A stretch of 64,000 nucleotides of DNA, taken from Vulcanimicrobiota bacterium (GTDB lineage: Bacteria; Vulcanimicrobiota; Vulcanimicrobiia; Vulcanimicrobiales; Vulcanimicrobiaceae). Of this stretch, positions 5,582 through 54,449 are shown piece by piece. Under the pieces are notes generated by a model. That model did not search any database, was not told the DNA's origin, and saw only the letters and a list, made by a program, of their open reading frames with translations. Each line of letters begins with the position of its first letter. Positions within the stretch are counted from its first letter, which is position 1. The translations under genes and the position numbers were made by a program. Location: positions 928,001-992,000 of the forward strand of contig CAWCIZ010000003.1 in assembly GCA_963795855.1 (NCBI GenBank), in the 5' to 3' direction.

Positions 5582-7103
5582 ATGCGAGCACGAGCGCAAA
5601 ACGCGGCCTCCGTCGACAGCGCACGCGAACTGTTTCAGGCCGCCGAGTTTACTTCCGCCGCGGCGACACTTCGCGCGCTTCTCGAGCAAAGGCCGGACGC
5701 CGTCGATGCGGCTCTACTCCTGGCACGGATTGAGATGCGCCTCGGCGAGCCGGCGGACGCGCTTGCAACGCTGACTCGATTCGGACGATTTGCGCGTAAA
5801 AGCGCGAAACCGGAACTGACGATGCTCAAAGCGGTGGCGTTCGCGCGTTCGGGCGACGCTGCTTCCGCGCGAACGCATTTTCGTAGCGCGCAAGCGCTCA
5901 TTGGGCCGGACGATGCATCCTACCCGGAACTGATCTATCAAATCGCCGCTAACGAATGGATGGAACGCCGCCTCGATAAAGCCGAAAAGTTGCTCGAGCG
6001 TATGCCGGAGGTACGGACTAGCGAGATCGATTTGCACGCGCGAATTTTGCACGGGGCGATAGCCTCGGCGAGCGAAAATCTTGCCGCGCAGGGCGCCATT
6101 CTGCTCGATGCTATACGGTGCACCGACGCCGCGGGCGCGGACGTTTATCTCTACGGCATGCTCGTGACGCAGATTGCGTCGCTTGCACTCGAGTCTGCCC
6201 AGCACCGCGCTGCGGGACGCCGCAATCGAACGCGTGGAAACGGTAAGGTGGACAACGGATATTGCGGATCTTCACTTTCACGCTGCTCGCGCGATAGCGT
6301 GGCGACACGCTTTGGACGGCGATGAATTCAGCGCTTTTCGCCGCTTGAAAGAAGCGCTCAACGCAGCGAATTCGGACGCGTGGCGCGTCGCCGCGCTGAC
6401 GGATCGCGCCTACCTTGCCGCGGTGCTCGGCGAGCGGCGCTGGGCCGCGCAAGAGTTGCGCGACGCGCACGACCTTGCCTCGAAGATCGACTGGGCAAGC
6501 GTCGCAGGCGAGGAGAAACTCGCTCTCCCCGTGCTCGCGGAGCTTTTCGCAGGCCGCGACCCTTCAGTCGCCATCGCCTACGTGACGACGTTCAAGAAGC
6601 TCGATAGGAATTTTCCGCGTATTCTTTCGTCTCGGCGCGATCGGCGGGTCGACGCGCTCGAAGCGTTTTCGCTCGGGCGCGTGCAACTGGCGCTCGGCGA
6701 ACGCCGCGAAGCGCGGCGGCTGCTCGAAAACGCGTGGTCGATTTACGATACGCTCGGGATGCAGTGGCGCGCGGGCCGTGCGGCGCTTTCGCTCCTAGAG
6801 ATCGACGCAAAGGGCCCTTGGCGCCAGCGGGCGGATCGGGCGCTCGAGCACTATCCGCGCAGTTGGCTCGTCCGTAAGGGGGTGACGCCGGGGGCTGTCG
6901 TCGCTGCCGCGCACCACGCTCCGCAACTGACGCCCGCGCAAAGGACTGTTTTGGACTTGCTTCTGGAGGGCCGCGGCACCGACGAAATATCGCGAACGCT
7001 GGGACGCAGCGCGTTTACGGTTCGCAACCACATCAAGGCGATTTTCAAGGCGTACGGCGTCACGTCCCGAGCGGCACTCATCGTTAGAGCTACAAGAGGC
7101 TAG
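5582..7103 (+). CDS. TPR-repeat protein with C-terminal LuxR-type HTH, regulator A (apparent frameshift near 6194; start uncertain)
   Basis: Helical TPR-like N-terminus; C-terminal LTPAQRTVLDLLLEGRGTDEISRTLGRSAFTVRNHIKAIFKAYGV. Confidence 0.8.
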
Positions 7104-7110
7104 GCAAACT

Positions 7111-7545
7111 ATGGTACGCCGCTCCTTCGCCGCCTCTTTTGCCGCAGTCGCGCTTCTCTTTACACTACTCGCAGCATGCGCCGGCCCCGCCTCCATTCCG
7201 GTGGAGAGTGCAGCCGACACGGCGGTGATCCAAGAGTCCGCCAACACTTGTGCGACGACGTACACGGTTCACCGCGATGGTACCGCTCAGCGCACGGTGC
7301 AAACGTGCGGTTCCGGCACGCTGAACGAAACGCTGCCGCCTAGCGTGACGTCGAAGCTTTTCTCCGATCTGCAATCCGCGCAGCCGCTCGGAGCGCTGCC
7401 GCGAGCTCTCACCGTCGACACTGACCTCATCATCGCGTGGAATGCACAGCAGACGCCCAATATCGAAGGCGCCGGCACCAACGTTATCGAGCAATCGCTG
7501 CTGGGTGACGTCAAGACGATCGAGCAAACCTTTCCAGCTCAATAG
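7111..7545 (+). CDS. Hypothetical lipoprotein
   Basis: Lipobox LLAA-C; starts 7 bp after regulator A. Confidence 0.7.
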   Translation: MVRRSFAASFAAVALLFTLLAACAGPASIPVESAADTAVIQESANTCATTYTVHRDGTAQRTVQTCGSGTLNETLPPSVTSKLFSDLQSAQPLGALPRALTVDTDLIIAWNAQQTPNIEGAGTNVIEQSLLGDVKTIEQTFPAQ

Positions 7546-7658
7546 AGACGTCGTCGTCACGGCGGGAGCGCACGCTTGGCCATGCACCAAAGCGCCGATC
7601 CCGCATTACCTCGGCGCGCGTAAAGCTTTGAGCAGAAGTATGAACGTATCGCGCAGAC

Positions 7659-9390
7659 ATGCCGAGATTTGTTCTCGGTATGACTTCCCTTGGTACGGTT
7701 TTACGATTCGCCGCAGTTGCGGCACTTTCAGCGACCTTCGCCGCATGCGGAGGCGGGCAATCCCCACTCGACATCACCCCTGCTACGACGACAACCGGTT
7801 TCTCTACCGCGAGAACCGCGCAAACGACGACTGCTGCGGCCGCGCCGGCTCTGACGCTGTCCGGCAACGTCATCAGCGCGGATATCTACAAAATCGCCGT
7901 CAAGACGACGCATCCGAGCTGCGGCACGATGTACGTCTACTACAACAGGAAGACGACGAAATTCTATCCGTACATCGGCTATCCGATCAAAGCCGGTATG
8001 CCGATTCAAGCTTCGGGTGCGGGCGCGTGCACGAACCGCGGTTCGCTAAACGCAAACGCAGTGACGTACACGGGCGCGGCGACGCCGCCGGCTTCGGCTA
8101 CGCCAGCGCCGAGCGTGTCACCGCCTCCCGTACCGGGAGCCTTGACGCCGCCCGGCACGACGGCATTCATGCCGAGCAGCTGGGGCGAGATCAGCGCGTT
8201 CCAAGTCTTCGACGAGACTTCGAACGGTTTCATCACGCAGACCGCAGACTTCGAATGACGGATGGCGCTACACCGCCGTGTGGGGTTCGCGGTGGAACAT
8301 CGGCACCGCGTGGAACAAAAGTAATCCGTCGCTCGAGAGCGGCTACTACAATGCGCTCGAAACCGATCCGAGTTACACCGGATGGGGTGCGATCGGCCAT
8401 AATCTTGCTTGGTGGAATGCGAATCATCCCGACTGGGTGTTATACGCGTGCACGTCCGCCGGAACGCCAAGCGCGAATCCGGCGTACGTACCGGGACTGA
8501 ACACGAACATTCCGCTCGACATTCACAATCCGGCCGTCGTCCAATATCAAGTTCGCGCCATGGCGAACTATGCGCACGCGATGGGCTATCGCGCGCTCGC
8601 GATCGACGAGGCGACCTTTTGGCAAGCCGATGCCGGCGCCGGCTCCGGTTCGTATGGCTGCGGGATTCGCCAAAACGGAGCGTGGGTGCAGCGGTACACG
8701 GGCGTAAACGATCCGAACTGGGCCGCCGACGTCGTGCAATGGACGAAAATCGCGCATAGTCTGCTTACGACGGATCCGGCGCTTGCGAGGTATCATCTCA
8801 AGCTGATCGTGAACCATCCCGCAAGCGGATTGTCGGCGAACGAAACGGCGCTGTTGTCGAACGTCGATGCCGATCTGGACGAAACGGGCTATAGCGATTA
8901 CGGCCGCTACCAGACCACGACCGCCAATACGTTCGTCATGCGTACGAATTGGGCGCAGTATGCGCAGCAACACGGCACGGCAATTTTGATGAACGCAAAC
9001 TGGGGCCGCGTTGCCGTCACCGCGCCGCGCTTCGACTATTCGATCGCGACGTACTTGATGGGCAATCTGCAAGCGGAGTCGATCTTCGTCTCGCCTTCGG
9101 CGGGATACGGCTTGGAGCAGTGGCATTCGGAGTATCAGACTGCGATCGGAGCGCCATGCGGAACCTATTACGGCGGCGCTTCGTACGACGCGGCAAATCC
9201 GAGCGTCTACTACCGCCGCTTCGGCAATGCGGTGGTGGTCGTCAACGCAGGCTCGGGAACGTCGAGCGAGGTGGCACATCTGCCCGCCGGACACACATAT
9301 ACCGACCTCGCCGGCCGTCCCGTTTCAAACCCCTTGACGCTCGCTTCGAATGACGGATACGTACTGCTCACGGCCAACGGCTGTCGCTAG
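7659..9390 (+). CDS. Lipoprotein, putative glycoside hydrolase (apparent frameshift near 8248)
   Basis: Lipobox FAA-C, Thr/Pro linker, Trp/Tyr-rich catalytic-like domain, C-terminal VYYRRFGNAVVVVN beta domain. Confidence 0.65.
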
Positions 9391-9876: not shown

Positions 9877-9879
9877 GCC

Positions 9880-10333: not shown

Positions 10334-12313
10334 ATGGCCGGAGCGGGCGAAAATCCGTATCTCGCGCGTTTTCGCCGCAAGTTCGGCAGCGAAGACGAGA
10401 CGAGCCGTTATGTCTCGGCGCTGTATGACGTTCTAGCGAACACCATCGGCTCGGACAAGCTGGTGCTGCGCGCCGGGAAGATGAACGCGCTCAAACTGAT
10501 GCGTTCGACCGCGCTGCCGGACCGCATCTGCGCGCTCGCGCGTTTGGTCTTCGAGGATCCGACGCTCGAACGCGTTACGGGGCGAGCGAATTCGCGACGC
10601 GTCATTTCCGAGATCGAAGAACATCTGGCGGATCTCATCGCGCAGAAAAACGTCGAAGATTCGATCGAGCGCCGCATCAACACGAAAATGATCGAGCGCC
10701 ATCAAGAATACTTGAAGGACCTCAAACTCGAAGCATTGCGCGAGGACACCGGTCCCGAAACGCCCGCGACGCAGAAGAAGCTGGAGGAACTGCAGCAACT
10801 CGATGCTCGCGGTCTGGCGGCGTCGGCGCTGCAGCTGCTGCGCCCGCAATCGCTCAAGGAAGTGGTCGGACAAGAGTCCGCCATTCGCTCGCTGCTGGCA
10901 AAAATTTCGTCGCCGTATCCGCAGCACGTGATCCTCTACGGGCCGCCCGGTGTCGGCAAAACGACCGTCGCCCGTTTGGCGCTCGAAGTGGCGAAGAACC
11001 GCGCCTACACGCCTTTCAAAAAGGAAGCGCCGTTCGTCGAGGCAAGCGGAACGACGCTGCGCTGGGATCCGCGCGAGACGACGAATCCGCTGCTCGGCAG
11101 CGTGCACGACCCGATCTACCAGGGCAGCCGGCGCGAATTCGCCGAGGGCGGCATTCCCGAGCCGAAACTCGGCTTAGTGACGCGCGCCCACGGCGGCGTG
11201 CTCTTCATCGACGAGATCGGCGAGATGGACCCGCTGCTGCAAACGAAGATCCTCAAAGTTCTCGAAGACAAGAAGGTCACGTTCGAATCGTCGTATTATG
11301 ACGAATCCGCGTCGAACGTTCCCGAATACATCAAACGATTGTTTCGCGCCGGCGCGCCGGCCGATTTCATTCTCATCGGCGCCACGACGCGAGAACCGGA
11401 AGATATCGACGCCGCCATCCGCTCGCGCTGCGCGGCCGTGTACTTCGAACCGCTGACCCAGCATCAAATCGTGAGCATCGTCAACGGCGCAATCAAACGT
11501 CTGCGCGCGAAAGCCGCCCGAGGCGTCGCACCATTGATCGCCTCGTACACGATCGAAGGGCGTAAGGCCGTGCAGGTCGTTGCGGACGCCTACGGGCACG
11601 CGCTGTACCGAATTGCCGGCAGCCGCGCGAAGGTAGACGACGCGAAGCACGTCACTATCACCGAAGACGACGTGCGCGACGTCGTTCAGGCGAGTCGTCT
11701 CGTACAGCATACGACGGTAAAGGCGCGCTCGACGCGCGAAATCGGCAAAACCTTCGGCCTAGGCGTATTGCACTATTTGGGCAGCATCATCGAAATCGAA
11801 GCGGTCGCCTTCGGCTCCGGCGCGAGCGGCAAAGGCACCGTGCGTTTCAACGACGCAGCCGGAGCAATGGCGAAAGACAGCGTGTTCAACGCGGCTGCGG
11901 TGCTGCGCGCGGTAACCGGCTTGGACACGGCGAATCACGATTTGCACATCAACGTGATCGGCGGCGGAAACATCGATGGACCCTCTGCGGGCCTGGCGAT
12001 TTTCCTCGCTCTGTATTCTGCGCTCACGAAGACGCCGCTGCCGCAGGACGTTGCGATCACCGGCGAGCTGTCGATTCAAGGCAAGGTTCGTCCGGTCGGC
12101 GGTATCGTCGAGAAGTTGTATGCCGCAAGACAGGCGGGCATGCGCGCGATACTCGTGCCCAAGGAAAATCTTCGAGAAATTGACCGTACGCTCGCAGGAA
12201 TCGACGTCATTCCTATTACGTCGGTGGAGCAGGCGTTCCGCGCGCTTTCTCTCCACAAGAAATCCACAAGGCGAGTGACGCGCGGGCGGCGCAGTACTTC
12301 CGCCCGCTCATGA
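10334..12313 (+). CDS. lonC: Lon-family ATP-dependent protease (LonC-like)
   Basis: Walker A GPPGVGKT, Walker B LFIDE, Lon protease DGPSAG; lies between rplI and dnaB. Confidence 0.85.
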   Translation: MAGAGENPYLARFRRKFGSEDETSRYVSALYDVLANTIGSDKLVLRAGKMNALKLMRSTALPDRICALARLVFEDPTLERVTGRANSRRVISEIEEHLADLIAQKNVEDSIERRINTKMIERHQEYLKDLKLEALREDTGPETPATQKKLEELQQLDARGLAASALQLLRPQSLKEVVGQESAIRSLLAKISSPYPQHVILYGPPGVGKTTVARLALEVAKNRAYTPFKKEAPFVEASGTTLRWDPRETTNPLLGSVHDPIYQGSRREFAEGGIPEPKLGLVTRAHGGVLFIDEIGEMDPLLQTKILKVLEDKKVTFESSYYDESASNVPEYIKRLFRAGAPADFILIGATTREPEDIDAAIRSRCAAVYFEPLTQHQIVSIVNGAIKRLRAKAARGVAPLIASYTIEGRKAVQVVADAYGHALYRIAGSRAKVDDAKHVTITEDDVRDVVQASRLVQHTTVKARSTREIGKTFGLGVLHYLGSIIEIEAVAFGSGASGKGTVRFNDAAGAMAKDSVFNAAAVLRAVTGLDTANHDLHINVIGGGNIDGPSAGLAIFLALYSALTKTPLPQDVAITGELSIQGKVRPVGGIVEKLYAARQAGMRAILVPKENLREIDRTLAGIDVIPITSVEQAFRALSLHKKSTRRVTRGRRSTSARS

Positions 12314-13675
12314 GCATAACGAATCTCCCGCTGGTCGACCGAATTCCGCCGCAAAACTTAGAGGCGGAGATGGCGTTGCTCGGCTCGATTCTCGTCGATC
12401 GCGAGATCATGGGCATCGTGAACGAGATCGTGCGCCCGGACGATCTGTACGCACACGTGCACGAGTCGATCTACGCGGTGCTTCAGCATCTGTACGACCG
12501 CGGCGAACCGCTCGACAAAATTACCGTTGCGGAAGAACTCAAACGCCGGAGCGAACTCGAGAAAGTCGGGGGACTCTCGTACCTCAGTTCGCTGATGGAT
12601 ACGGTGCAGACCGCAGCATCCGCGGCGTACTACGCGAAGATCGTGCGCGAAAAAGCAGTTCTGCGCGGTCTGATTCACGCCGGAACGCGCATCACTCAAC
12701 TCGGCTTCGAAAACGAAGAAGACGTCGACGGCGCGCTCGACCAAAGCGAGCAAATGGTTTACGACATCGGGCGCCGGCAAATGCAGGGCGAGTTTACGCC
12801 CGTGAGCCGCTTGCTCAAACCGGCGTTCGAACACATCGACAAGTTGTTCCACAACCGCGGGGGCCGCACCGGTTTGACGTCGGGCTTCGCCGACATCGAC
12901 GAAATGACGACCGGTTTTCAGCCCGGCAACTTCATCATTCTGGCCGCGCGACCCGGTATGGGCAAGACCTCGTTCGCGCTGAACATGGCGGTCGCAGCAT
13001 CGCGGGAAGAGACCGCGCCCGTCGCGTTCTTTTCGCTGGAGATGTCGAACGACGAGCTGGTCCAGCGTCTGATCTGCGCGGAAGCGGAGATCAGCATGCA
13101 CGACATGCGGCGCGGCAACATCAAGCCGCACCATTGGGAGAAGATCTCCGACGCGATGGGCGTGCTCAACGAGATGCCGATCTACCTCGACGATTCCGGC
13201 GGGCTTTCGGTGTCCGAGATTCGCAGCCGCTGCCGCAGGCTCAAGTCCGGACAGGGACTCTCCGCAGTGTTCATCGACTATCTGCAGTCTGGTGCACCCG
13301 AGCGTGCTGAGCCGAGGCGCGAATCGCAACGAAGAGCTTTCCGATATCTGCCGCACGCTCAAGATGACGGCGAAAGATTTGGGCGTGCCGATCGTTGGGC
13401 TGGCACAGTTGAACCGCGGCGTCGAAGCGCGCACCGATAAGCGGCCGCTTCTGAGCGATCTGCGCGACTCGGGCTCGCTCGAGCAGGAAGCCGACATGGT
13501 CGCGTTCCTTTTCCGCGAAGGATATTACCACAACGAAGCCGCGGAGCCCGACTTGACCGAATTCATCATCGCGAAACATCGAAACGGGCCGACGGGAACC
13601 GTGAAATTGCGCTTTCAGCGCGAGTTCACGTTGTTCCGGCCGTACGGCGACGCGACGCACTACCCGACGCCGTGA
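12310..13675 (+). CDS. dnaB: Replicative DNA helicase (apparent frameshift near 13288)
   Basis: PPQNLEAE, AARPGMGKT, DYLQ, QLNR, DLRDSGSLEQEAD, IAKHRNGPTG. Confidence 0.95.
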
Positions 13676-17832: not shown

Positions 17833-17833
17833 G

Positions 17834-18820: not shown

Positions 18821-19814
18821 GTGCAAAATCGTCTTATGCGAGGCGCTCTTTTCTTTTTGGGCTTAGCCCTCGCAGGCTGTTCTACGCAAGGATCGCAGAA
18901 CGTTCCGCAGGGCGGGGTCACTCGCCCACCGAGCGGTCCGGCGCTGCAAGCGCCCGCCCTTCGGCGGCCTATGGACGTTTGGGGCGGTCCATCCGGACTG
19001 TTCCGCATGTTGAATTCGCTTTTAGGAGACTCCGCGCCGACGATCGGGGGGAGGACGCTCGCGCACTTCTACGTCGGCGTGCGTGAGATCGACGCTATTC
19101 AAAACGGACAGAGCGTCGTGCTCGGTTCGTCGTCGACGCCGTATCAGATCGACTTGCTCCAGTATCAAAACGGCAGCGGCGATTGGATGACGCAGACGAG
19201 CGTTCCGGCGCAGACGTACACGCAACTGCGCTACGTTTTCGACGTCGGCAGCACGCAGGCGGTTTTCGCGGACGGCAGCACGATGCCGGTCCGATTCAAC
19301 GCCGGACCTTCGCGCAGTTCCTCGGGTGAAGGCGCGTCCACGTCGACATCGGCCGACTCGACCTATGCGAACGCGGTAGACGTCGTCGTGAACACGCAGC
19401 TAACCGTGCAGTCCGATTCGGATACCGTGGCGGCGGACTTCAACCTCGCCGAATCGTTGGGTCAAGCGCCGGGCGCGCTGGTCGTTCGTCCGGTGGTCTC
19501 AGCCGCAGCCGATCCGGGTCAAATCAACGGAACGGTGCAGAACGCTAACGGCAACGGCGTGCAAGGCGCCACCGTGGTCGCGTACGGTTCCAACGGCGCC
19601 GCGGTAAATTCCACGGCGACGGATGCGAGCGGCGCGTTCAATCTCCATGCGCTGCCGGCCGATACATATCAGACTCGTGATCTATAACAATTACACGAAC
19701 GCGGCCGGCTACCGGACGAACGCGTCCGGCCAGACGTCGAACGGTTCGGTCAGCGGACCGTCGGTTTCCGTTACTTCGGGAAGCACTGTTTCTGCCGGAA
19801 CCATCGGCGACTAA
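18821..19814 (+). CDS. DUF4382-like lipoprotein with carboxypeptidase-regulatory-like domain, copy 1 (apparent frameshift near 19673)
   Basis: Lipobox LAG-C; LLGDSAP, IDLLQYQ, ADFNLAESL, GQINGTVQNANG. Confidence 0.75.
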
Positions 19815-19835: not shown

Positions 19836-20823
19836 ATGAAGCGTACAGCTTTACACCTGTGTGCTCTAGCGACGGCGTGCACCCTAGCCGCGTGCGGATC
19901 CGGTTCGAATCCGAATCCGCCGGCGCAAGTGCCGCAGTCGGGCCCAGGTTTGATACGGCCGATGGACGTCTGGGGCGGACCTAGCGGTTCGCGACTGAAC
20001 GTTCTGCTCGGCGACGCCGCGCCGGATTTGGGCGGCAACAAACTCCAGCATCTCGATCTCGGCATAAAAGAGATCGATGCAATCGACAACAGCGGACAAA
20101 CCACGGTACTGGCTTCGTTCGAAACGCCGCGCGTCGTCGACGTGCTTGCGCACCAACGCGACGACGGCGAATCCGTGGCCGACGCGAACGTCAGCCGCAC
20201 CAGTTATCAAGAGTTACGGCTGGTGGTGGACCTCAGCTACAGACTTCGCCAAGTTCAGCGGTGCGCCGCGAGTGCCGGTCAACTTCCTGGTCAACGTGGC
20301 CAGTGCCAGCAGCGTCAACGCCGGCGTGACGACGCTCACGACGAGCGACGGACCGGGAGCGGTAGACGTGCTGGTGAAGCAGGCGTTTTCCATCGCGGAC
20401 GGTGGCCACCAATCGGTTCGCATGGACTTCAATGCGTTCGAATCGCTGACGCTCGACCAGTCGGGAACGCTCCTCGCGCGACCGACGATGTTCGTAGCGC
20501 CCGTCGACGAGATGGGCAGCGTGAGCGGCCGCGTGCTGGACTCCAGCGGGAATCCGGTCCAGAACGCAACGGTCGCGGCGATCGCGCCGGACGGTTCGGT
20601 CGGCAATACGGACTGGACCGGGCCGCGAGGACACTTCAGCATCGGCACGCTGCGTGCCGGAACGTATCAGCTCGTCGTCTACAACGCGTACACGACGGCT
20701 GCCGGACGCGCAGTCACCGCATCGGGGGTTAGCAGCGCCAACGCCTCAATGCAATCCATCTCCGGGCCGAACGTTACGGTAACGGGCGGCAAAAACACTG
20801 CTGCAGGCATCATCAAGGACTGA
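19836..20823 (+). CDS. DUF4382-like lipoprotein with carboxypeptidase-regulatory-like domain, copy 2 (apparent frameshift near 20243)
   Basis: Lipobox LAA-C; LLGDAAP, MDFNAFESL, GSVSGRVLDSSG; paralog of copy 1. Confidence 0.75.
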
Positions 20824-22389: not shown

Positions 22390-24513
22390 CGCCGCTGCTT
22401 GCAGCACTCGCCGGAGCGGTACTAGCACTCCTCGTGGCGGGCGCCGTCGCGGTCTTTGACCGCCGGCGCTCGCTGCGGGCGCTCGTCGAAAAGCGCTACA
22501 GCGTTCTCGAAAGCATTCCGGACGCTTTTCTCATCGTCGATCGCGAGTTTCGATTCACGCACGCAAACGAGCGCGCTGAAGATCTCTTCGGCCGCAGCGC
22601 GGGCGAACTGGTTGGGTATCGCGTCGAAGACATTCTCGACCCGCTCGCATCGGAGCTGCTGCCCGAGATGCGCCGCGCCGCCGAAGCGGGACGCCCGATC
22701 GAGCGACTACAGTATTTTCCGGCGACGAGCCGCTGGATCGAGATCTGCATGCAGCCGGCGCGCGACGAAGTGCTCGTGTATCTGCGCGACATTTCGGAGC
22801 GTAAGAAAGCCGAACTCAGCGCGCTGGACAAAGAACGGCGTCTGCGTTTGCTGCTCTCGCAAATTCCGGCGGTGCTCTTCACCGTCGATCTCGACATGAA
22901 CATCACGTCGGTCGCGGGCGCCGCGCTTAGTCAACAAGATCTTTCGGAAGATAAACTGGTCGGCGCACCGTTCGACGCGCTGCTCGCCGGCCACGAACAA
23001 CGCCTCGCATCGGTGTCGGCGGTGCGACGCGTACTGGCGGGGGAGGCCGTTTCCTACGAAACGCAACTGCGCGATCGCTGGCTGCAGAACGACGTCGAAC
23101 CGCTTCGCGACGCACAGGGGAGCGTCGTGGGCGCCATCGGCGTTATGCTGGACGTCACGGAAGTCCGCTCGAGTGCGGAGCGCTTCGCGCAGCTCGCCCG
23201 TCAAGATGTGATGACGGGGCTGCCCAATCGGCTCGCGCTGGAAGAGCGTCTGCCGGAGCAGGCTCGACCACGCGCTGCAAAATCACGAGTCGGTCGCGGT
23301 GCTCTTCGTCGACCTCGACCGCTTCAAGACGATCAACGACACGCTCGGGCATCGCGTCGGCGACGATCTGCTGCGCGCCGTTTCAAGCCGCATGCAGACG
23401 CGCATCGACAATCGCGCGACGATTTACCGGCCTGGCGGCGACGAGTTCGTCATCGTCATCGACGGAATCAAACACAAACGCACGGTCGCGGCCATTTCGA
23501 TGGAAGTGCTGCAGGCGTTCGCCGAACCGTTCGACGTCGAAGGCCGCGAGCTGTTCGTCACCGCGAGCCTTGGAGCGAGCATCTTTCCGCAAAATGCGCA
23601 GACCGCGGACGAACTCATCGCATACGCCGACTCGGCGATGTATCGCGCCAAAGAGTCCGGGCGGAACAACGCGAAATTTTACGATGGAACCATGCACGCG
23701 CACGTGCTCGAACGCATGGGCTTGGAGCAGGATCTGCGGCAGGCGCATTTGCGCGGCGAGCTGCGGCTGCTGTATCAGCCGATCGTCGACATGGCTTCGC
23801 GGCGCATCGTCGGCGCGGAAGCGCTGCTGCGCTGGCAGCATCCGCTGCTCGGCGAACTCTCGCCGCAGACATTCGTGCCGATCGCCGAAGAAACGGGCGT
23901 CATCGTCGAGATCAGCCGCTGGGTGCTGCGCGAAGCTTGCGCGAACGCGGCGCGGATGCGGCGCGAGGGAGCCTCGGATTTCCGAATCAGCGTGAACCTT
24001 TCGCCACGCGATTTCTACGAACAGGATCTCGCCGCCACGCTCGCCGCCGTGCTTGCGGAAACCGGTTTGCCGGCGGACGCGCTGGATTTGGAAGTCACCG
24101 AGAACGTGGTGCTCAACGACATGGCGCTCGAGACGCTGCAGCGGATCGCGAACATGCACGTCAACGTCGTCGTCGACGACTTCGGCACCGGCTACAGCTC
24201 GCTGCACTACATCAAGCGTTTGCCGGTCAAGGCGATCAAAATCGATAAGAGCTTCATCGACGACGTCGCGATGGATCCGTACGATCAAGGCATCGTCAAA
24301 GCCATTACGACGCTGGGCAATACGCTCAACCTGCGCATCATCGCCGAAGGCATCGAGTCGGAATCGCAGTACGAGTTCTTACGCTCGCTCAAATGCGAGC
24401 ACGCGCAGGGCTATTTCTTCTATCGCCCGCAGACGTGGAGCGCGCTCGTCACGATTTTGCAGCGTAGCGGTGAGGTGAGTACCGGCGCGCGCGTGATTCC
24501 GCTGTACGGCTAG
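22386..24513 (+). CDS. Membrane-anchored PAS-PAS-GGDEF-EAL protein (apparent frameshift near 23262)
   Basis: N-terminal TM helix, two PAS domains, TGLPNR, GGDEF, AEAL, DDFGTGYSSL. Confidence 0.9.
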
Positions 24514-28384: not shown

Positions 28385-29622
28385 CGCTGCGGCGCGCCGC
28401 AGCAGTAAATTCTTGTCGCGAGCGTTTTGTGCGAGCGCCGCCGCGCGTTCGAACTCCTCGCCGGCCTCGTGCAAGCGGCCGAGCTTCTGCAGCAAATCTG
28501 CGCGCACGCTGGGCAGCAGGTGATACGACTTGAGCGCGGGCTCCTCGAGCAGGACATCCGCGATTTCGAGTCCCGCGGCAGGGCCGAATGCCATGCCGAC
28601 CGCCACCGCGCGATTTCAGCTCGATGACCGGCGAAGGCGCGATCTCGGCGAGTGCGTCGTAGAGCGCGGCAATCCCGTGCCAGTCCGTCTGGTCGGGCAT
28701 CGCAGCCCTCGCGTGACACGCTGCAATCGCGGCCTGCAGCGCGTACGGCCCCAGCGCTGCGCGCAGCTTGCGCGCGCGAGCCAGCGCGTCGAGTCCCCGG
28801 CCGATCAGCAGCCGGTTCCATTTCCCGCGATCTTGATCGAGCAGTAAGATCGGCTCTCCCGACGGTGCGACTCGCGCGCGCATGCGCGATGCCTGCAGTT
28901 CCATGAGCGCGACCAGGCCGTGCACTTCAGATTCGTCCGGTACGAGTTCGGCAAGCACGCGGCCAACGCGCAGCGCATCCTCGACGAGTTCGGGGCGAAG
29001 CACGTCGTCGCCGGCACTGGCAGCGTAGCCTTCGTTGAAAATCAGATAGATGGCTTCGAGTACCGCCTCCAGCCGCTCCGCGCGCTCCGGACCGGCGGGC
29101 ACTTCGAGCGGTACGCGCGCTTCCGTAAGCGTGCGCTTTGCGCGCACGATGCGCTGCGCGATCGTCGCCTCGGACGTTAAGAACGCGCGCGCGATTTCCG
29201 TCGTGCTCAGCCCGCCGATCAGACGCAGCGTCAGTGCGACGCGCGCCTGCGTCGATAGCACGGGATGGCACGCGGCAAACATCAGTCGCAGCATGTCGTC
29301 GTTGATTTCTTCGAACACGGTCTCGTATTCCGAACCCGCCTCTTGCGTTTCCATGTCGCGCCCCAGTTCGTCCGCCTTGCGTTCGAGCGTTTTGTCGCGA
29401 CGGATGGAATCGATTGCGCGGCGTTTTGCGGCGGTCGTCAGCCACGCGCCTGGATTGCGCGGGATGCCTTCCTGCGGCCACTGCGAGAGCGCCGCGACGA
29501 AAGCATCCTGCGCAAGATCTTCGGCTCTGCCGACGTCGCGCACGATACGCGTGAGGCCGGCGATCAGTTTGGGCGATTCGATGCGCCAGATCGCATCGAG
29601 CGTGTCTTTAAACAGAGCTCAC
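28373..29622 (-). CDS. ECF42-like RNA polymerase sigma factor with C-terminal TPR extension (apparent frameshift near 28616; start uncertain)
   Basis: AEDLAQDAF, NPGAWLTTAAKRRAID, CHPVLS, YLIFNEGY, QAAIAACH. Confidence 0.88.
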
Positions 29623-31845: not shown

Positions 31846-32700
31846 GTGAGCAATGCTGTCGCTATGGCCGTTACCCTCGAGCCCGTCATCGGGCTCGCGA
31901 AGGACGAGTTCACGCACCCGCTGCCTCCGCCCCTTAAATGGGCGGGCGGTAAACGTTGGCTCGTACCGCATTTGCTGGGGTGGTGGAACGGTCACGACGA
32001 TCGCCGGCTCGCCGAGCCGTTCGCGGGCGGCCTTGCCGTCACGCTCGGGCTGCTTCCGCGGCGAGCGCTGCTCAACGATGCGAATCCACATCTCATTTCG
32101 TTCTACCGGTGGCTGCAGCGCGGTCTGGATGCGACGACGACCGGCATCCGCTTCGCGAACGACCGCGCGGTCTACGCGCACAACCGCACCCGGTTCAACG
32201 AGTTGATTCGCGAAAACCGCATGGAAAGCGCCGAGGCGGCAGCGTTGTTTTATTATCTCAATCGCACGGGCTACAACGGGTTATGCCGGTTCAATGCACG
32301 CGGATTTTTCAACGTTCCGTTCGGGCGCTACAAACAGCCGCCGTACCGCGAAGATTTTACGCCGTACAAACGCGCGCTCGCGCACTACGAATTCACGCAG
32401 GGCGACTTCGAGAACATGCCGCTGCAAAGCGCGGATTTCGTCTACGCCGATCCGCCGTACGACGTCGAATTCACCGCATATTCGGCGGGCGGATTCACGT
32501 GGGACGATCAAAAGCGCCTCGCGCGGTGGCTGGCGGCGCATCCGGGGCCGGTCGTCGCGTCGAATCAGGCAACGCCGCGAATTCTGCGCCTGTACCGCAA
32601 ACTCGGTTTTTCGATTCGCGTCGTCGACGCGCCGCGCCGCATCAGCTGCGACGGCAATCGCGACGACGCCAAAGAAATGGTCGCCGTGAGGAATCTTTGA
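31846..32700 (+). CDS. Dam-family (D12 class) N6-adenine DNA methyltransferase
   Basis: LKWAGGKRWL, EPFAGG, YLNRTGYNGL, YADPPY. Confidence 0.92.
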   Translation: MSNAVAMAVTLEPVIGLAKDEFTHPLPPPLKWAGGKRWLVPHLLGWWNGHDDRRLAEPFAGGLAVTLGLLPRRALLNDANPHLISFYRWLQRGLDATTTGIRFANDRAVYAHNRTRFNELIRENRMESAEAAALFYYLNRTGYNGLCRFNARGFFNVPFGRYKQPPYREDFTPYKRALAHYEFTQGDFENMPLQSADFVYADPPYDVEFTAYSAGGFTWDDQKRLARWLAAHPGPVVASNQATPRILRLYRKLGFSIRVVDAPRRISCDGNRDDAKEMVAVRNL

Positions 32701-33147
32701 TGGGCATGCTGTTTCCGGGAAGCATCGGCACGAAGACCGGTTCCACGCTCGAGGTCAGCGTCGAAGCGGTGCTGCTCAACAACAGTCTACGCCGTGCGCA
32801 AGCAGCAAATCGTCGGCAGCAAACCGGGCGGCGGACGCCACAAAGCCGATATCGTGGGGATGCGTCCGAACGGCTCCCAGTTTCTCGTTTCGCTCAAGTG
32901 GCAGCAGACGACGGGGAGCGCCGAAGAGAAGATTCCGTTCGAAGTGATCAAACTGCTGCACGCGCTGCGCGAGAACCCGTCGGTCTTCGACAAGGCCTAC
33001 ATCGTCGTCGGCGGCGACGGCTTCACCGCGGGACTCGTCGAGTTCTATCTTTCCGACGAGTTCCGTTCGTATATCCGCGACTCGCACAAGATCGAGATCC
33101 TCACGCTGAACGACGTCATCACGCGCGCGAACCGCGGCGCCCTTTAG
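32700..33147 (+). CDS. PD-(D/E)XK nuclease, putative restriction endonuclease (apparent frameshift near 32786)
   Basis: Start overlaps the MTase stop (TGATG); HKADIV..LVSLKWQQTTGSAEEKIPFE. Confidence 0.75.
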
Positions 33148-35810: not shown

Positions 35811-36684
35811 GGCCCGTCCATTGCGCGATCTTCGCGCTCGCGCAGCCAGTCGCCGACGAAATTGAATGCGCAGACGCTGAACAATATCGCCAAGCCGGGC
35901 GGTAAAATCAGCCACCACGCGCCCGCGAAGATGTCGCTCTGCGCGCCGGAAAGCAGATTGCCCCACGACGGAATCGGTAAGCGCACGCCGATGCCGAGAT
36001 ACGAAAGCGCCGTTTCTGCGAGCATCGCGCTCGCGATCATGAACGTCGTCGTCGTAATGATCGTTCCGACCGCATTCGGCACGACGTGGCCGAAGATGAT
36101 GCGGCGATCGGTAGCGCCGATGGAGCGGGCCGCCTCGACGAAGAGCCGCTCTTTGAGTGAGAGTACGTCGCCGCGCACTAATCGTGCCGGCCCGAGCCAC
36201 GACGTCGCGCCGATGACGAGCATGAGGGCGAGCAGATTTCCGTGGAACATCGCGGCAAGAAACAGCAGCAGAAACAGCGTGGGAATGCTGAGCAGCACGT
36301 CGACGACGCGCATCAGCAGCGTATCGATCCACGACCCATAGTAGCCGGATACCGCGCCATAGATCGTGCCGATACCCATCGCGACGATCGCCGCGACGAT
36401 ACCGACGCCCAGCGTGATGCGTCCGCCTGCGAGCAGGCGCGCCAGTTCGTCGCGGCCCAAGGCGTCCGTGCCGAGCCAGTGTACGCCGCCCGGCGCATCG
36501 TACGCGTGCGTTACGTCCGTTGAAAACGCACCAACGTGGAGGAGCGATGGACCTGCCGCGCAGGCCACCGCCGCCAACGCGATCCAGCCCAGCTGAGGGC
36601 GGCAACGGGCGTCACGCGAATGCGCCGCCATTTCGGAGCTTCCGCCGTTTCGTCGACGGGAATAACGATCGCGGCTTCAGTCAT
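35807..36684 (-). CDS. Peptide ABC transporter permease, OppC-like (apparent frameshift near 36590)
   Basis: HWLGTDALGRD; FVEAARSIGA; PSWGNLL. Confidence 0.9.
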
Positions 36685-37638: not shown

Positions 37639-39136
37639 CTACCAGCGATAGTTGCCGATTGCGTCCCACTGATACGGCTGCGTGCCGTCCCAAGCGAAGA
37701 AGATCTCGCCGATCGCGCCAAGTTCTTTGCTGACGTCGAGCGAGGCGGTGATTTCGTCCGCCGGGGGATAGCCGTTCGGTCCTTCGGCGTCGGTTTGTCC
37801 GCCTATGCTGATGGGATCGCTGCTGCGCGAAAGATAGCGAAGGCGATTGTACGAGCCTCTGAGCAGCACGCGGACTTGCGCGGCGGTGGTAGGTTTGCGT
37901 CGCATCATGCGCCAGTACGACATCGGCTGCAGCACGCTCACGAACCGCGCAATCTGCGGAAACGGATATTTCTTGTTGTTCAAATGTTCGAGGTAGGGAT
38001 CTTCGACGTTCGCCGCTACCAGATAGTCGGGCCCGAGGGCCTGCCGCACCGACTGCGCGTATTTCCAAAGCGCATCGAGACCTTGCGGATCGTCGCCGAG
38101 AAATTCGTCGCCACGCTCGACGTCGATTGCGACGCCGGTCAGCGGCGTGCCCTTGGCGGTGCGGTAATACGCGCTGCGCACCGTCGCGCCGACGTCGTCG
38201 TAGAGTGTGTCGCGCGGCACCGTCCACCCGATCGTGCCGATACCGTGAGCGGCGAGCCCGTCGATGATTGCGTCGATCGTTGGCTTCGCTTCAGGCGTAA
38301 TCTCCCAATACGCGCCGTACGCGGTGCGCAGTTCGACGTAGTGCAAGTGCGCTTTTACCGCTTGCGCGACGATAGCGGCCGGATTGAGATGCTTGAAGTA
38401 AATTTGATCGAGCGGATTTCCCGTAAAGTACAGCCACATTGCCGTGCCTGATGCATTCGCGACGGCCGTTCGCGGCGGGGCGGGCATCGTGCGTACCGGG
38501 CCGAGTGCGACGGGCAGCGCGATCGGCGCGGTACAATTCGTACCGGTACGAAACGCCCGGCTGCACCGCAGTGTCGCGGAACGAAGAACTCGGGCCGGCA
38601 ATGACCGCTAACGTTTTTCCGCGTCCTGCGGCGTCGAGCCGCACGACCCGCGTCATTTTGCGCTCTTGCGGAAACCAGCCGATCTGCACGGCGTACGGCC
38701 CGAGCGCGCGCGCGATGACGCGCGGTCCGCGCCATGTGCGCGTGTCGGTTCGCAGCACGATAGGCGCGAACGCCGGTTGCGTGGAGTGTACGTTCATCGT
38801 CAGCACCCCCGCATGCCGCGCGTGCAAAATCGCGGAAGGTTGGCCGTAGCGCAGGCGCGTCTGCCATTGTACGAAACCGTCGCGTGAGGTCCAGTCGACG
38901 TTGCCGCCGGCCATCACGCGCGTCGGTTTTCCTTGCGCGTCCCAAAACCGTGCGATGACCAGCCAGCGCGCGTTCCCGTCCGGATCGAATCCGAGCGGAC
39001 GCGAATCGAGCGTCATGCGAACGGCCGGTTTGCCCCAGTATACCGGACCAGTGGGCGTCGCCGTCGGAATCGGCGCGGGCGTAGGCGTGGCTTGCGCGAG
39101 CAGCGCGGCGATGACGGCGAAAAGCGCGGATTTCAT
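37639..39136 (-). CDS. Secreted protein with FN3-like and putative glycoside hydrolase-like domain (apparent frameshift near 38520)
   Basis: Signal peptide, PT linker, FRDTAVQPGVSYRY, VAIDVE, LQPMSYW. Confidence 0.6.
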
Positions 39137-49222: not shown

Positions 49223-49282
49223 AGATTTTTTGACTTTGCCGTTACGGGAGCCCGATGCCTGCCGTCAAATGAGTGCACGGTG

Positions 49283-50138: not shown

Positions 50139-52933
50139 CGCGACTTCGACGCAACCTGCCGTAGAGAGCGCCTTCGCCTTCAACCGACCCGCGTTGAATG
50201 CGGGCGCGTTCTCTTGCAGCGCCGCGGCGACGTACTCGTCGTGCGTCCGCCGGTCGTGAGGCCGCATCTCGACTACGAGTTCTTCGCGCAAGCGCGCGGC
50301 GGATTCACTGAGCAGCCCCGCACGTTCGTACGCATGCTCGCGAACGGCGAGCGCCGCAAGGGCATCCAGTACGAGCGCGATCCACGAACGCTGCTTTTCG
50401 CGTTCCCATAGGCGCAGCGCTTCGATGAAGTCGCTCTTGGCTTCATCGAAACGTTCCAGCGCGAATTTCGCTTGCGCCATCGCGTAGTGTGAGAGCGCGA
50501 TGCCGTAGACGTGTCCGAGCGTACGGCGGATATCGTAGCTTTCCGTCACCATCGCGAGCGCCTCCTCGTAGCGTTCTTCTTCGAACGCTACGCCGGCCAG
50601 ATGGTACAAAACCCAAGCGATGCTCTCCGCGCCGCCCAGCGCGCGGTAGATATCGAGGCTTTCGCCGAGCACCCCGCGCGCTTCGTCGAAGCGGCGCAGC
50701 GATGTATATTCCGCTCCGAGATTGTCGAGCGCCCGCGCCGTCTTCACGTCGTCGTGCGCGCGCCGCGCACAATCTAGCGAAGCGGAAAACGCTTCGCGCG
50801 CTCGTTCTACGTCGCCTCGTTCGTGCGCCACCACGCCGGCCGCATGATGCAATTCCGCCATTGCCTGCTCGTCGAGATTTGCGGCGCCAGTCTCGAGTTG
50901 CAGCAGCGATTCCGCGTGCGTGACGTCTCCGAGCAGCGTCGCAAGCACGGCAGCGGCGGCGTGACAGCGAGCGCGCACGGAGTCATCTTGCGCGTGCAAC
51001 GCGAACCTTTCCATCCACTGCTGCGCTTCGGCATACGATCCTCGGGTCAGCCAATAGCGATATAACGCGAGCGCGAACGGCGCTCCCCATAACGCGTTGC
51101 CGCCGTCGGCAATCTGCAGCAACGCCGCAATGTTTGCGCGTTCGTCGTGCAATGCATCGAGCGCCGTACTCTGCTGCGGACCATGCAGTTTTCCAGCCAG
51201 CCCCTCGATGTGCGCGCGATAGTACTCCACGAACGACCGCGCGGCATCGGCGGCTTCCTCATCGCTCGTGTGCCGCAGCGCGAATCCCCGCACGCTTTGG
51301 TAGAGCGCGTGGCGGCGCCCGGAATGGGCATCGAACGAATGGCCGAACGATTTTTCGAGAAGCGAAGCCGCGCCCTCGGCGCACACGGCTTGCGCTGCTT
51401 CCACCGTCCAGGAATCCGGAAACACGGTCAGCATTCGCAAACAGCGGCTTTGCTGCGGCGAGAGAAGTAAATCACTCCACGCGATCGTGTCGTGCAGCGT
51501 TTTATGATGGGTCGGTCCCGAGCGTTGCGTTCCGCTCGGCGATGACGTATCGCCGTGTAATGCCTGCGCGATCGCGTGAAGCGGTAAAATCGTGCAGCGC
51601 GCCGCGGCGAGCTCGAGAGCCAGTGGAATTCCCTCGAGCGCAACGCAAAGCTGGTCGAGCGCCCGGACGTCCGCGGCGGCGTCAGGCCCTCCGGCGGCGG
51701 TGACGCGATCCGAGAGCAAACGCCGCGCGTCGGAAAGCGGCAGCGGCTCGATGCGCACGAGAGCTTCCCGCCGATCTTGAGCGGCTCGCGCGAGGTCACC
51801 AGTACCGAGAGGTTCGGACAGCGCGCGAGCAGTTCTTCAATGGCGTTGCCCGCGTCTTCCACCAGATGCTCCGCATTGTCGACGAGCAGCAGCACCGCGC
51901 CGTCCGCGATGGTGCGGCACAACGCTTCGGCCGCAGCTTCCTGCGGCTGGCGTCGCACTCGCAGCGCGGAAAGAAATGCGTCGAACATTTCCGCCGAACT
52001 GCGGGCGCCGGCGAGCTGGACGTACCACGTCTCGTTGCGATCGCCGCGCGTTCCGTGCGCGTAATGCAGCGCGAGGCGCGTCTTTCCGACGCCCGGCGCT
52101 CCGCAAATCGTAATGGTGCGACGCGACGCATAGAGCGTGGCCAGTCGTGCAATTTCGGTTTCGCGGCCGATGAACGGATCGGACTCGTACGGCAGATTGT
52201 GGGTACGGCGAACCGGCGGCGCACTGCTCAGATTTTCGTATAGACGCGCCGTTTCCGCGTCGGGTTCGACCGCGAATTCCGCGCGCAGCTTCTCCGCGAA
52301 AGCGCGATACGAAGAGAGCGCGCCGGCGCGATCGCCGTAATTCACTTGCGCGTTCATCAGCGCGCGCAGCGCGTCTTCCCGAAACGGATCCACCGCGAGC
52401 AGGCCGCGCGCATAATCTGCGGCTGCGGCGTCATTCTCGAGCAGGGCGGTCTCCATCGCCGCAGCCAGCACTGCGGCGAAACGCTCGCGAACGCGATCGC
52501 GGAATGGAGCCAGCCATTCGTCTTCGACACGCGTCATCAATCCGCCACGATAGATTTGCAGCGCGCGTGCTGCTGATTCCGCGGTGATCGCCGGCTCCCC
52601 GAGCAGCCTTTCGAGTTCCCAGACGTCGCACGAAACGCCACCGCGGCGCAGCGAGAGCGTCGTGGACGTCACTTCAAGCGCCGTGCCTGCTGGAAGAAGG
52701 CTTTGCAGGCGGTGCACGGCGCGCCGCAAGTTCGCGCGCGCGGCGCTTTCCGTTTCATCGGGCCAAAGCGCGAACGCGGCTTGATCCCGGCGGACTGCCG
52801 CAGGATGCAGTGCGAGAAATGCCAGAATTGCCGGCAGACGCGGAAAGCCGGCAAACGACACGGCACGGCCGTCCACGAACAGTCCGGGTTCGCCGAACAG
52901 GCGCAATTCGACCGTTTGCACTGCAATGGCCAT
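50127..52933 (-). CDS. AfsR/SARP-type regulator: wHTH-BTAD-ATPase-TPR (apparent frameshift near 51768)
   Basis: ALWPD..ARANLR, DPFREDA, GAPGVGKTRL, LLVDNAEHL, LEGIPLALELAAAR. Confidence 0.88.
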
Positions 52934-52999
52934 CGAGAGACCTCGGCCTTTAGCATACTGCATGACGCACGCGGGCGTCTGCGGCGGGGAAGCGAGCGG

Positions 53000-53359
53000 C
53001 TACTTCGTAAGCGTGCGGAGTTCTTCGATGCGCGCCACGGCGCGGCGCAGATGCGGAATGACGATCGAACCGCCGACGACGAGTCCGACGTTGAGCGCGT
53101 CCAGCAGTTCGGCGTCGGTCATTCCGAGCTCTACGCATTGGCCGAGATGATACGTAACGCAGTCATCGCAGCGCAATACGAGCGATGCCACGAGACCGAT
53201 GAGTTCTTTCGTTCGCTGCGGCAGCGCGCCGGGTTCGTACGCGCGCGCATCCAGATTGAAGAAACGTTTGATGCCGAGATGATCCGAATCGAGGATATTC
53301 TCATTCATCCGCCGCCGGAACTCGTTGAAGTCGTGAATGCTGTGAACGTCGTCCGGCAT
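53000..53359 (-). CDS. Carboxymuconolactone decarboxylase/AhpD family protein
   Basis: TKELIGLVASLVLRCDDCVTYH. Confidence 0.88.
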   Translation of the reverse strand: MPDDVHSIHDFNEFRRRMNENILDSDHLGIKRFFNLDARAYEPGALPQRTKELIGLVASLVLRCDDCVTYHLGQCVELGMTDAELLDALNVGLVVGGSIVIPHLRRAVARIEELRTLTK

Positions 53360-53365
53360 GCGGAC

Positions 53366-54449
53366 CTAGCGCGCCGGCGCGAGCGGAGCGAATTGCGCGA
53401 GGAACCGTTCGACGAGCGGAAGCGCTACGCCGGCGTCCGCAAAGCGCCGTTGCAACCCTTCCGGCGTTGGAGAAGGCAGAACGGACATGAATACCGCGGG
53501 GCCGTTCGTGCTTCGAACGTCGACCTGTGACGCGCCGGCGGGAATGAGCGCGGTCTCGTACGGTGCCAGCAGCGCGGAGCCGCCGGTGCAATGCAATTCC
53601 AGGCCCGCTCCGAGCGCCGAAAGAATCAACGGGCGGTTGCGCGTGCTCAACGACGCAGCCGTTTCCGTCGCGGTGACGCGCTCGACCAGGAAATGCGCGT
53701 CCGCGATCAATGCGGTTCGCGAAAAGCCTTCCGCGGCATAGGTGAGTTCGTCGAGCGGCTGTTCCGACGTCGACGCGCGGTAGTCGAGGACGTCGGCCGC
53801 TTTTTCTAAATGCAAAGGCCGCGGCCGGCCGTCCGCGCCCAAGCGATTCCAATCGTACATGCGGTACGTCAAATCACTCGCCTGCTGCGTTTCGTACAGC
53901 GTAATGCCCGGACCGATCGCGTGAACTCGTCCCGCGGGAATATAAAAGGCGTCCCCGGCCTTCACCGGAACGCGACGCAAGATTTCGCCGAGCGTACCGT
54001 CGGCCACGCGCCGTTCGTATTCATCGCGGCTGGTTTCGCGCGACCATCCCATCACCAATTGCGAACCCGGCTCCGCGTCCATCACGTACCAGCATTCGGT
54101 TTTTCCGTTCGGCTGATGCTCGACGCGCCGCGCGTACGCATCATCCGGATGGACTTGAACGGAAAGCCAGTCGCGCGCAGTAATGATTTTCGTGAGCACG
54201 GGAAACATGCGCGCGGGATCGATTTCGCCGAGGAAAGCCGCGCCCATACGCACGCGCAGACTGCGCGATGCTCTCGCCGGCCAGCGGCCCGTTCAGCACC
54301 ACGTTCGCGTCCCAGCACTCCCACGACTCGCCCCACGTTTCGGACGGATCTCCGTATTTTCCGTAACGCTCGACCAGCGCGCTGCCGCCCCAAATCGCAG
54401 CGGCGAGTTTGGGCTGCAGGAGGTACGGATAGAGTTGTGCGTCCGGCAT
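53366..54449 (-). CDS. manA: Type I mannose-6-phosphate isomerase (apparent frameshift near 54260)
   Basis: IWGG, GESWE, LSVQVHPDD, GKTECW, HAIG, EtQQaSD. Confidence 0.88.

What the first reader, a model, noticed from the sequence alone, without database searches (positions are those of the whole stretch)
6192..54262. Apparent frameshifts cluster at AGCT: fingerprint of a DNA modification
Eight broken genes are repaired by deleting the middle base of AG-N-CT to give AGCT: 6192 AGTCT, 8246 AGACT, 13286 AGTCT (essential dnaB, restoring DYLQLV), 19671 AGACT, 20241 AGACT, 23260 AGGCT, 32784 AGTCT and 54258 AGACT. Other breaks lie at or next to AGCT or are repairable to it (near 302, 28618, 29616, 33797, 35750, 36591, 38518, 43402, 51762, 58318). 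The break at 34660 is at AGGCT but needs more than one change. Many AGCT sites are read intact. Established: modified bases cause motif-specific errors in native long-read consensus. Inference: AGCT carries a methylation or backbone modification and these genes are intact.
Basis: partly seen in the sequence, partly recalled or inferred. Interest (0 to 1): 0.7.

Follow-up and report, generated by a model that had tools for sequence, protein, structure and literature searches.

The report
Assembly errors betray methylated AGCT sites
Extra single letters pile up at the exact centre of the DNA word AGCT in this soil bacterium's genome assembly and break even essential genes; they are very likely sequencing errors, probably left where a stand-alone methylating enzyme of a family known from methane-making archaea marks that word, so the genes are likely intact and the artefact is of a known kind.

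Summary
Observation largely confirmed. All 8 named AG-N-CT sites are +1 frameshifts against 2-6 relatives. Of 11 secondary sites, 4 lie at or beside AGCT, 4 are real breaks elsewhere and 3 were not confirmed. Across aligned parts of the genome, 26 of 155 single insertions sit at the AG|CT centre (0.6 expected). A reference-free scan ranks AG-N-CT first of 136 classes, on all six contigs. dnaB, gyrA, rpsD, pheS and tmk are hit, so the breaks are artefacts. Three other few-contig relatives show the signature; many-contig relatives do not. The likely writer is an intact orphan beta-class methyltransferase (G000:C3:115533-116486), present in 8 of 8 genus genomes and 54-59% identical to proteins of the archaeal genera that carry the HG16 AGCT m4C family. 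No phosphorothioate genes were found. No reads were available, so modification, base and platform are inferred, and the control in genomes lacking the enzyme is weak (0 of 5). The organism is Ca. Eremiobacterota, Baltobacteraceae. The scan reported this before in two other windows of this genome and in another genome.

The parts
6192..6196 (+). AG-T-CT, +1 insertion at the centre of AGCT in a TPR/LuxR-type regulator gene
   Evidence: (G001, G002, G004, G007)
8246..8250 (+). AG-A-CT, +1 insertion, gene of no Pfam family
   Evidence: G002, G003
13286..13290 (+). AG-T-CT, +1 insertion in dnaB (12310-13675)
   Evidence: G001, G002, G003, G005, G006, G007
19671..19675 (+). AG-A-CT, +1 insertion in a DUF4382/carboxypeptidase-regulatory-domain gene
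20241..20245 (+). AG-A-CT, +1 insertion (best interval 20231-20243) in a second such gene
23260..23264 (+). AG-G-CT, +1 insertion in a PAS-GGDEF-EAL gene
32784..32788 (+). AG-T-CT, +1 insertion in a PD-(D/E)XK nuclease gene (PF20472) that follows dam
   Evidence: 6 relatives
54258..54262 (-). AG-A-CT, +1 insertion in a minus-strand gene
28614..28621 (-). +1 break (T-run) directly beside an intact AGCT, in an ECF sigma/DUF6596 gene
36588..36597 (-). -1 break spanning AGCT in an ABC permease gene
51750..51771 (-). -1 break spanning or beside AGCT in a BTAD-AAA-TPR regulator gene
   Evidence: distant homologues only
31846..32700 (+). Dam-family m6A methyltransferase, predicted GATC; the second genus-wide methyltransferase and the internal control (GATC shows no error excess). 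The likely AGCT writer lies outside the window, at G000:C3:115533-116486, minus strand

Best explanation
The frameshifts at AGCT are very likely systematic errors of a long-read assembly made from native DNA, probably caused by N4-methylcytosine that an orphan beta-class methyltransferase of the HG16/M.Mma5219II family is predicted to write at AGCT. Shown: extra letters concentrate at the AG|CT centre, with smaller excesses of indels beside it; essential genes are hit; the same signature occurs in three other few-contig genomes that carry the enzyme and not in many-contig carriers. Inferred: the enzyme (G000:C3:115533-116486) methylates the C on both strands; the modified word is misread with an extra letter in a share of reads; where depth is modest the extra letter wins the consensus at about 3-6% of sites. 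AGACT and AGTCT are one error seen from either strand (18 of 26), as are AGGCT and AGCCT (8 of 26). Platform and base are not observed.
For: Central insertions: G000 26 of 155 (0.6 expected), G005 17 of 96 (0.32); beside AGCT 11 versus 2.6 and 10 versus 1.85; deletions within 6 nt 4 of 31 (0.53) and 4 of 22 (0.49). Outside dense error patches 22 of 50 (0.24 expected). Reference-free, whole genome: 100 of 4295 AG-N-CT sites, 2.3% versus 0.51% background, rank 1 of 136, all six contigs. Essential genes hit. G117 3 of 5 and G012 4 of 7 homology-verified +1 shifts are AG-N-CT. Many-contig carriers show none. The enzyme has an intact frame, DPPY before the glycine-rich motif, and a beta-class fold; it is in 8 of 8 genus genomes and 54-59% identical to proteins of Methanoculleus, Methanoregula, Methanofollis, Methanospirillum and Methanohalophilus. 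That range is HG16's and not HG18's or HG20's (PMC10609329, Table S3 rows and section 3.5). AGCT m4C is listed for M.Mma5219II, M.Msp273III and M.MhuIV (PMC11033074 passages). Methylation-linked indels in native nanopore assemblies are in print: 77 of 103 indels at or beside methylated bases, 1 indel after PCR (PMC12506013 passages).
Against: No reads or modification calls. The negative control is small: 0 of 5 verified +1 shifts in 480 kb from ten genomes without the enzyme, 1 beside AGCT; Fisher p = 0.044, or 0.10 if ambiguous cases are counted. The raw reference-free scan gave 7 of 521 in nine such genomes against about 2 expected; only 1 of the 7 had homology support, and its DNA alignment favours a different extra letter. 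There is no excess of C-to-T/G-to-A substitutions at AGCT (13 versus 11 non-synonymous), the error type reported most for modified bases (PMC11610603, PMC10687267 passages); the indels in PMC12506013 were nearly all deletions and mostly tied to 5mC. AGCT depletion does not track the enzyme. The family link rests on taxon range; I did not hold a sequence labelled M.Mma5219II. G000 is 86% complete, so another writer could be missing.
Confidence: 0.75

Rival explanations
1. The errors are artefacts, but of sequence context alone: the basecaller or polisher inserts a letter at AG|CT whether or not the DNA is modified.
For: The control in genomes without the enzyme holds only 5 verified shifts, one beside AGCT; the raw scan gave 7 of 521 against about 2.
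Against: 0 of 5 central versus 7 of 12 in carriers; 6 of the 7 raw hits had no homology support; no other palindrome but CGCG (15 versus 6, in dense patches) is enriched; a candidate enzyme for this very word is in all four genomes with the signature.
Confidence: 0.08
2. AGCT is modified, but by another system: 5mC (AluI-like), a phosphorothioate between G and C, another base change, or the Dam-family enzyme in the window with an altered target.
For: The insertion sits at the exact centre, where a G-C backbone change would lie (inference). G000 has a C5 methyltransferase with HNH and Vsr genes. The genome is incomplete.
Against: C5 enzymes are in 2 of 8 genus genomes and none was found in G012; those of G000 and G005 look unrelated by eye (not aligned). 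The two PAPS-reductase-fold hits in G000 score as CysH-like and CysD, not DndC/SspD types. One tgt gene only, no DpdA-like copy. No type I or Eco57I-type enzyme found. The Dam keeps the E. coli Dam recognition hairpin.
Confidence: 0.12
3. The insertions are real mutations: an AluI-like nuclease cuts AG^CT blunt and Ku/LigD end-joining adds one untemplated letter, which would explain any letter at the exact centre.
For: All four letters occur at the centre. G000 encodes Ku. LigD adds untemplated nucleotides (PMC8068969 passages). The blunt AG^CT cut of AluI is recalled, not from a call.
Against: dnaB, gyrA, rpsD, pheS and tmk would be broken in a population consensus; no decay on either side of the breaks; many-contig carriers have none; the assembly also has patches of random indels, 114 of 204 events in 9 of 71 bins; no nuclease-like gene was seen beside the enzyme (read by eye).
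Confidence: 0.03
4. Programmed frameshifting, RNA editing or pseudogene decay at AGCT.
For: None found.
Against: The sites differ between G000 and G005, the inserted letter varies, deletions occur too, and relatives are in frame at every site.
Confidence: 0.01

Closest known systems
Modification-linked systematic errors in native nanopore assemblies (PMC12506013, PMC11610603 Hammerhead, PMC10687267 Modpolish; passages read)
   Same: Errors recur at one short motif, are lineage-specific and can be found by comparison with relatives; PMC12506013 ties indels to methylated positions and shows they vanish after PCR.
   Different: In the passages read the errors are mainly substitutions or deletions at 5mC, 6mA or unknown marks; here they are one-letter insertions at the centre of AGCT with no substitution excess. 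AGCT does not occur in the main text of PMC11610603.
HG16 persistent orphan AGCT m4C methyltransferases of Methanomicrobiales and Methanohalophilus (M.Mma5219II, M.Msp273III, M.MhuIV; PMC10609329 section 3.5 and Table S3 rows; PMC11033074 passages)
   Same: Beta class, orphan, persistent in a clade, 54-59% identity over the full length to proteins of the same genera, including the best beta-class match (57-58%; next 30%) in the genome of strain J.3.6.1-F.2.7.3, where AGCT m4C is listed.
   Different: The host is a bacterium (Ca. Eremiobacterota, Baltobacteraceae); activity and target are not shown here; no sequence labelled as an HG16 member was held.
HG11/HG19 AGCT m4C enzymes of Nitrososphaerota (M.NspBD3I, M.Nca01I; PMC6329791 passages, PMC11033074 passages)
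   Same: Same word and predicted base; found together with a GATC m6A enzyme, as here.
   Different: Not among the 80 best genome hits; only feature-level Atlas neighbours; relation not tested by alignment.

Membership tests
Modification-linked long-read consensus error | Errors enriched at one motif beyond chance | tested here: met
   26 of 155 versus 0.6; rank 1 of 136 genome-wide
Modification-linked long-read consensus error | Affected genes intact in relatives and not decayed; essential genes hit | tested here: met
Modification-linked long-read consensus error | Errors absent from amplified or short-read data of the same DNA | not testable with these tools
   no run listed; only a proxy: many-contig relatives lack them
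Modification-linked long-read consensus error | Signature depends on the modifying enzyme | tested here: inconclusive
   7 of 12 in carriers versus 0 of 5 in non-carriers, p 0.044-0.10
Modification-linked long-read consensus error | Modified base called in raw signal | not testable with these tools
   no raw signal held
HG16 AGCT m4C orphan methyltransferase | Beta-class amino-methyltransferase (DPPY before the SAM-binding motif), intact | tested here: met
   PF01555, alignment, fold like CcrM/RsrI/PvuII
HG16 AGCT m4C orphan methyltransferase | Full-length homology to the HG16 cluster | tested here: met
   54-59% to proteins of five HG16 genera; range fits cluster 357 only; by range, not by a labelled sequence
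HG16 AGCT m4C orphan methyltransferase | Orphan: no partner nuclease | tested here: inconclusive
   neighbours read by eye as dehydrogenase and sensor kinase, order kept in the genus; neighbours not scanned against Pfam
HG16 AGCT m4C orphan methyltransferase | Persistent in a clade (75% or more of at least 5 genomes) | tested here: met
   8 of 8 in the genus; 41 of 348 in the family
HG16 AGCT m4C orphan methyltransferase | Writes m4C at AGCT | not testable with these tools
   inferred from homology and the error motif
Phosphorothioate system (Dnd, Ssp and kin) | DndC/SspD-type PAPS-reductase-fold gene in a modification cluster | tested here: not met
   two PF01507 hits in G000, scored CysH-like and CysD; genome 86% complete
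AluI-type 5mC system | A C5 methyltransferase shared by all genomes with the signature | tested here: not met
   2 of 8 in the genus; none found in G012

The most novel reading that the evidence does not exclude
A subclade of soil Eremiobacterota keeps the same two-mark epigenome, GATC m6A plus AGCT m4C, that Methanomicrobiales and Nitrososphaerota keep, as a housekeeping signal and not as phage defence: 10 of 11 sampled carriers of the AGCT-type enzyme also carry the Dam, against 7 of 140 others. The central insertion is then a read-free reporter by which AGCT m4C can be typed across public long-read genomes of uncultured microbes.
Probability: 0.3. Interest if true: 0.55.

Novelty: new member of a known kind. 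Interest (0 to 1): 0.27.

Why it matters
Practical: an estimated 150-330 of about 5,240 AGCT sites in this assembly (3-6%) carry a false insertion, so gene loss, pseudogenes and completeness read from it and from sister assemblies are wrong. Biological: it points to a methylation motif for an uncultured phylum; three papers held all of 'Eremiobacterota', 'methylation' and 'methyltransferase', and none is on DNA methylation by its listing. It also extends the archaeal HG16 family and the GATC plus AGCT pairing to bacteria, where the published guess of a shared epigenetic role can be tested. The artefact class itself is known.

Tried and rejected
Sequencing runs: none was listed, so no reads were laid. 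Substitution errors at AGCT: no asymmetry in 99 kb of in-frame alignment. AGCT depletion as support: AGCT is the most depleted 4-mer (O/E 0.59), but it is as low in many-contig G002 and G007, near 0.84-0.99 in six other carriers and 0.62 in non-carrier G078, so it is real, not error, and does not track the enzyme. C5, type I, Eco57I-type, phosphorothioate and DpdA-like writers: not found or not shared. Tree of 101 proteins (103 less 2 exact duplicates; quick search): the Eremiobacterota and methanogen proteins form one group apart from other beta-class enzymes (support 96), but the root rests on very long branches, so no donor or direction is claimed. A larger negative control could not be gathered; it stays at 480 kb and 5 events. 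One script timed out and one stopped before G110. The 50%-cluster protein search was not obtained. Multi-gap events (75 of 261 in G000) were left out of the motif counts. Literature searches for AGCT-linked assembly errors listed no paper on it; most subscription papers are not searched, and bioRxiv supplements are closed.
Full report
Setting. The window is G000:C3:928001-992000 of a 3.06-Mb, six-contig genome, 86% complete. Named homologues place it in Ca. Eremiobacterota, Baltobacteraceae. The platform is not given and no run was listed. 'Long-read' for genomes of 1-8 contigs and 'short-read' for those of 140-460 contigs are my inferences.

The observation. I aligned 56 of the 64 kb to six same-genus genomes and scored every single-base edit near each site against homologous proteins. 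All eight are +1 frameshifts whose best interval covers the AG-N-CT; at 13286, 19671, 23260, 32784 and 54258 one or more relatives read AGCT outright. Of the eleven secondary sites, four are breaks at or beside AGCT (288-292, 28614-28617, 36588-36597, 51750-51771), four are real breaks not explained by AGCT (34660, 35750, 38518, 43402), 29616 and 33797 were not confirmed, and 58318 is inconclusive. Two more breaks, near 49230 and 53365, are not at AGCT. In all, 12 of 18 confirmed breaks lie at or beside AGCT.

More than chance. I found frameshifts without regard to motif, from gap events in DNA alignments where the third-position mismatch rhythm shows which genome lost the frame. G000 gave 261 distinct events: 155 single insertions, 31 single deletions, and 75 others left out. 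Of the 155, 26 restore AGCT at its centre against 0.6 expected from simulated random insertions, and 11 more lie within 6 nt (2.6 expected); 4 of 31 deletions lie within 6 nt (0.53). Away from dense patches of random errors the share is 22 of 50; inside them 3 of 96. Such patches hold 114 of 204 events in 9 of 71 bins. GATC, with five times more sites, has 1 of 138 (2.1 expected); CGCG has 15 against 6, mostly in the patches. A codon-model scan of the whole genome, with no reference, flags 100 of 4295 AG-N-CT sites (2.3% versus 0.51%), first of 136 classes, on all six contigs; it found only 3 of the 8 window sites, so it undercounts. Rates of 23 per 784 sites and 8 per 126 (window) give about 150-330 of 5,240 sites genome-wide. 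The inserted letter falls in two strand-symmetric classes, AGACT/AGTCT 18 and AGGCT/AGCCT 8.

Artefact, not mutation. Genes broken at AG-N-CT include dnaB, rpsD, gyrA, pheS, tmk and ribF (26 of the 28 relatives' frames listed were scanned). Both halves of dnaB are 90-91% identical to relatives. Five many-contig relatives show no AG-N-CT break in 152 kb of aligned coding sequence and 2 of 419 sites against 1.8 expected. The two-contig G005 shows the same signature at its own sites, 17 of 96, as do G117 (3 of 5) and G012 (4 of 7); G074, G028 and G032 had no verified shift in 80 kb each.

The likely writer. G000 yielded three DNA methyltransferases: a C5 enzyme, a beta-class enzyme and a Dam inside the window; type I and Eco57I-type searches found none. 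The C5 type is in 2 of 8 genus genomes and was not found in G012. The Dam (31846-32700) passes TIGR00571 and keeps the E. coli Dam recognition hairpin, so GATC is predicted. The beta-class enzyme P0001 (C3:115533-116486, 318 aa, intact) is in 8 of 8 genus genomes, 41 of 348 family genomes (the count includes unpublished G301) and all four genomes with the signature. Its closest relatives outside the phylum, at 54-59%, are in Methanoculleus, Methanoregula, Methanofollis, Methanospirillum and Methanohalophilus, with scattered bacteria. In PMC10609329 (section 3.5 read whole; table passages; rows of Tables S2 and S3) cluster 357, HG16, AGCT m4C, covers Methanoculleus marisnigri, Methanofollis, Methanospirillum and Methanohalophilus, whereas the HG18 and HG20 columns are empty in the M. 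marisnigri and Methanohalophilus rows. PMC11033074 (passages) lists AGCT m4C for M.Mma5219II, M.MhuIV and M.Msp273III; the genome of the last strain holds a 57-58% match to P0001 and a next-best of 30%. PMC6329791 and PMC8919816 (passages) show AGCT m4C at 82-96% of sites in Thaumarchaeota. The predicted fold is beta class with an added three-helix C-terminal domain; fold does not tell m4C from m6A. No phosphorothioate or DpdA-like gene was found.

What speaks against. There are no reads. Genomes without the enzyme gave only 5 verified shifts in 480 kb, none central and one beside AGCT (p 0.044, or 0.10 with ambiguous cases). The raw scan gave 7 of 521 there against about 2; one of the seven had homology support and its alignment favours another letter. 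No substitution excess was seen, although substitutions are the usual report (PMC11610603, PMC10687267; passages). PMC12506013 (passages) does tie 77 of 103 indels to methylated bases, but these were deletions and mostly 5mC. AGCT depletion is real but does not follow the enzyme. A biological rival, a blunt cut at AG^CT mended by Ku/LigD with one extra letter, fits the centre position, and Ku is present (PMC8068969 passages), but it cannot fix breaks in essential genes.

A wider lead. In a class sample of 151 genomes, 10 of 11 carriers of the AGCT-type enzyme also carry the Dam, against 7 of 140 others (kin are not independent; unpublished G031 is in the denominator). PMC10609329 notes the same GATC plus AGCT pair in two archaeal groups and guesses a shared epigenetic role. 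The tree joins the bacterial and methanogen proteins but gives no safe root.

Novelty. The artefact class and the enzyme family are known. I found no paper on AGCT-centred insertions or on DNA methylation in this phylum (listings only, except the papers named above; PMC11649196 passages, added nothing). Earlier notes of this scan reached the same reading in two other windows of this genome and in one other genome; they are not independent evidence. Verdict: a real, strong pattern; an assembly artefact that likely reports AGCT m4C; new member of a known kind; interest 0.27.

Noticed in passing
window 31846-33147: A Dam-family methyltransferase is followed at once by a small PD-(D/E)XK nuclease gene (PF20472); the Dam is in 8 of 8 genus genomes and the pair aligns as one block in 7 relatives. 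GATC is not depleted (O/E 0.98), so it may not act as a restriction system. In several other family genomes the Dam lies beside a second beta-class enzyme instead.
   Followed up: partly
G000:C3:855179-857500 (L011): C5 methyltransferase with HNH and Vsr genes in lower-GC DNA; the frames are broken in several places. Not found in the six many-contig genus genomes.
   Followed up: partly
G000:C3 about 691-697 kb, 210-220 kb, 1029-1035 kb; C2 about 286-291 kb, 670-680 kb; C1 about 250-260 kb: Patches with 2-3 random indels per kb of coding DNA, mostly insertions of a new letter rather than homopolymer growth; likely low-depth stretches. CGCG junctions are mildly enriched there (13 of 96 versus 4).
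   Followed up: partly
P0001 residues 265-318: Conserved three-helix C-terminal domain (W269, R280, R304, G305 invariant in 55 homologues) with no Pfam hit; shared with the archaeal homologues; possibly a DNA-binding add-on.
   Followed up: no
window 35747-35754 and 38515-38522: Two +1 breaks not at AGCT share the context GCAGCGCG; whether these are misread AGCT sites or plain CG-repeat errors is open.
   Followed up: partly
whole genome G000: GCCA/TGGC (O/E 0.75) and TGACA/TGTCA (0.49) are also depleted; GCCA is low in nearly all family genomes sampled, with or without the enzyme.
   Followed up: no
G112, L120 and L121: A genome without the AGCT-type enzyme has one +1 break beside AGCT and one on an AGACT that aligns better with another letter removed; it deserves a full census.
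   Followed up: partly
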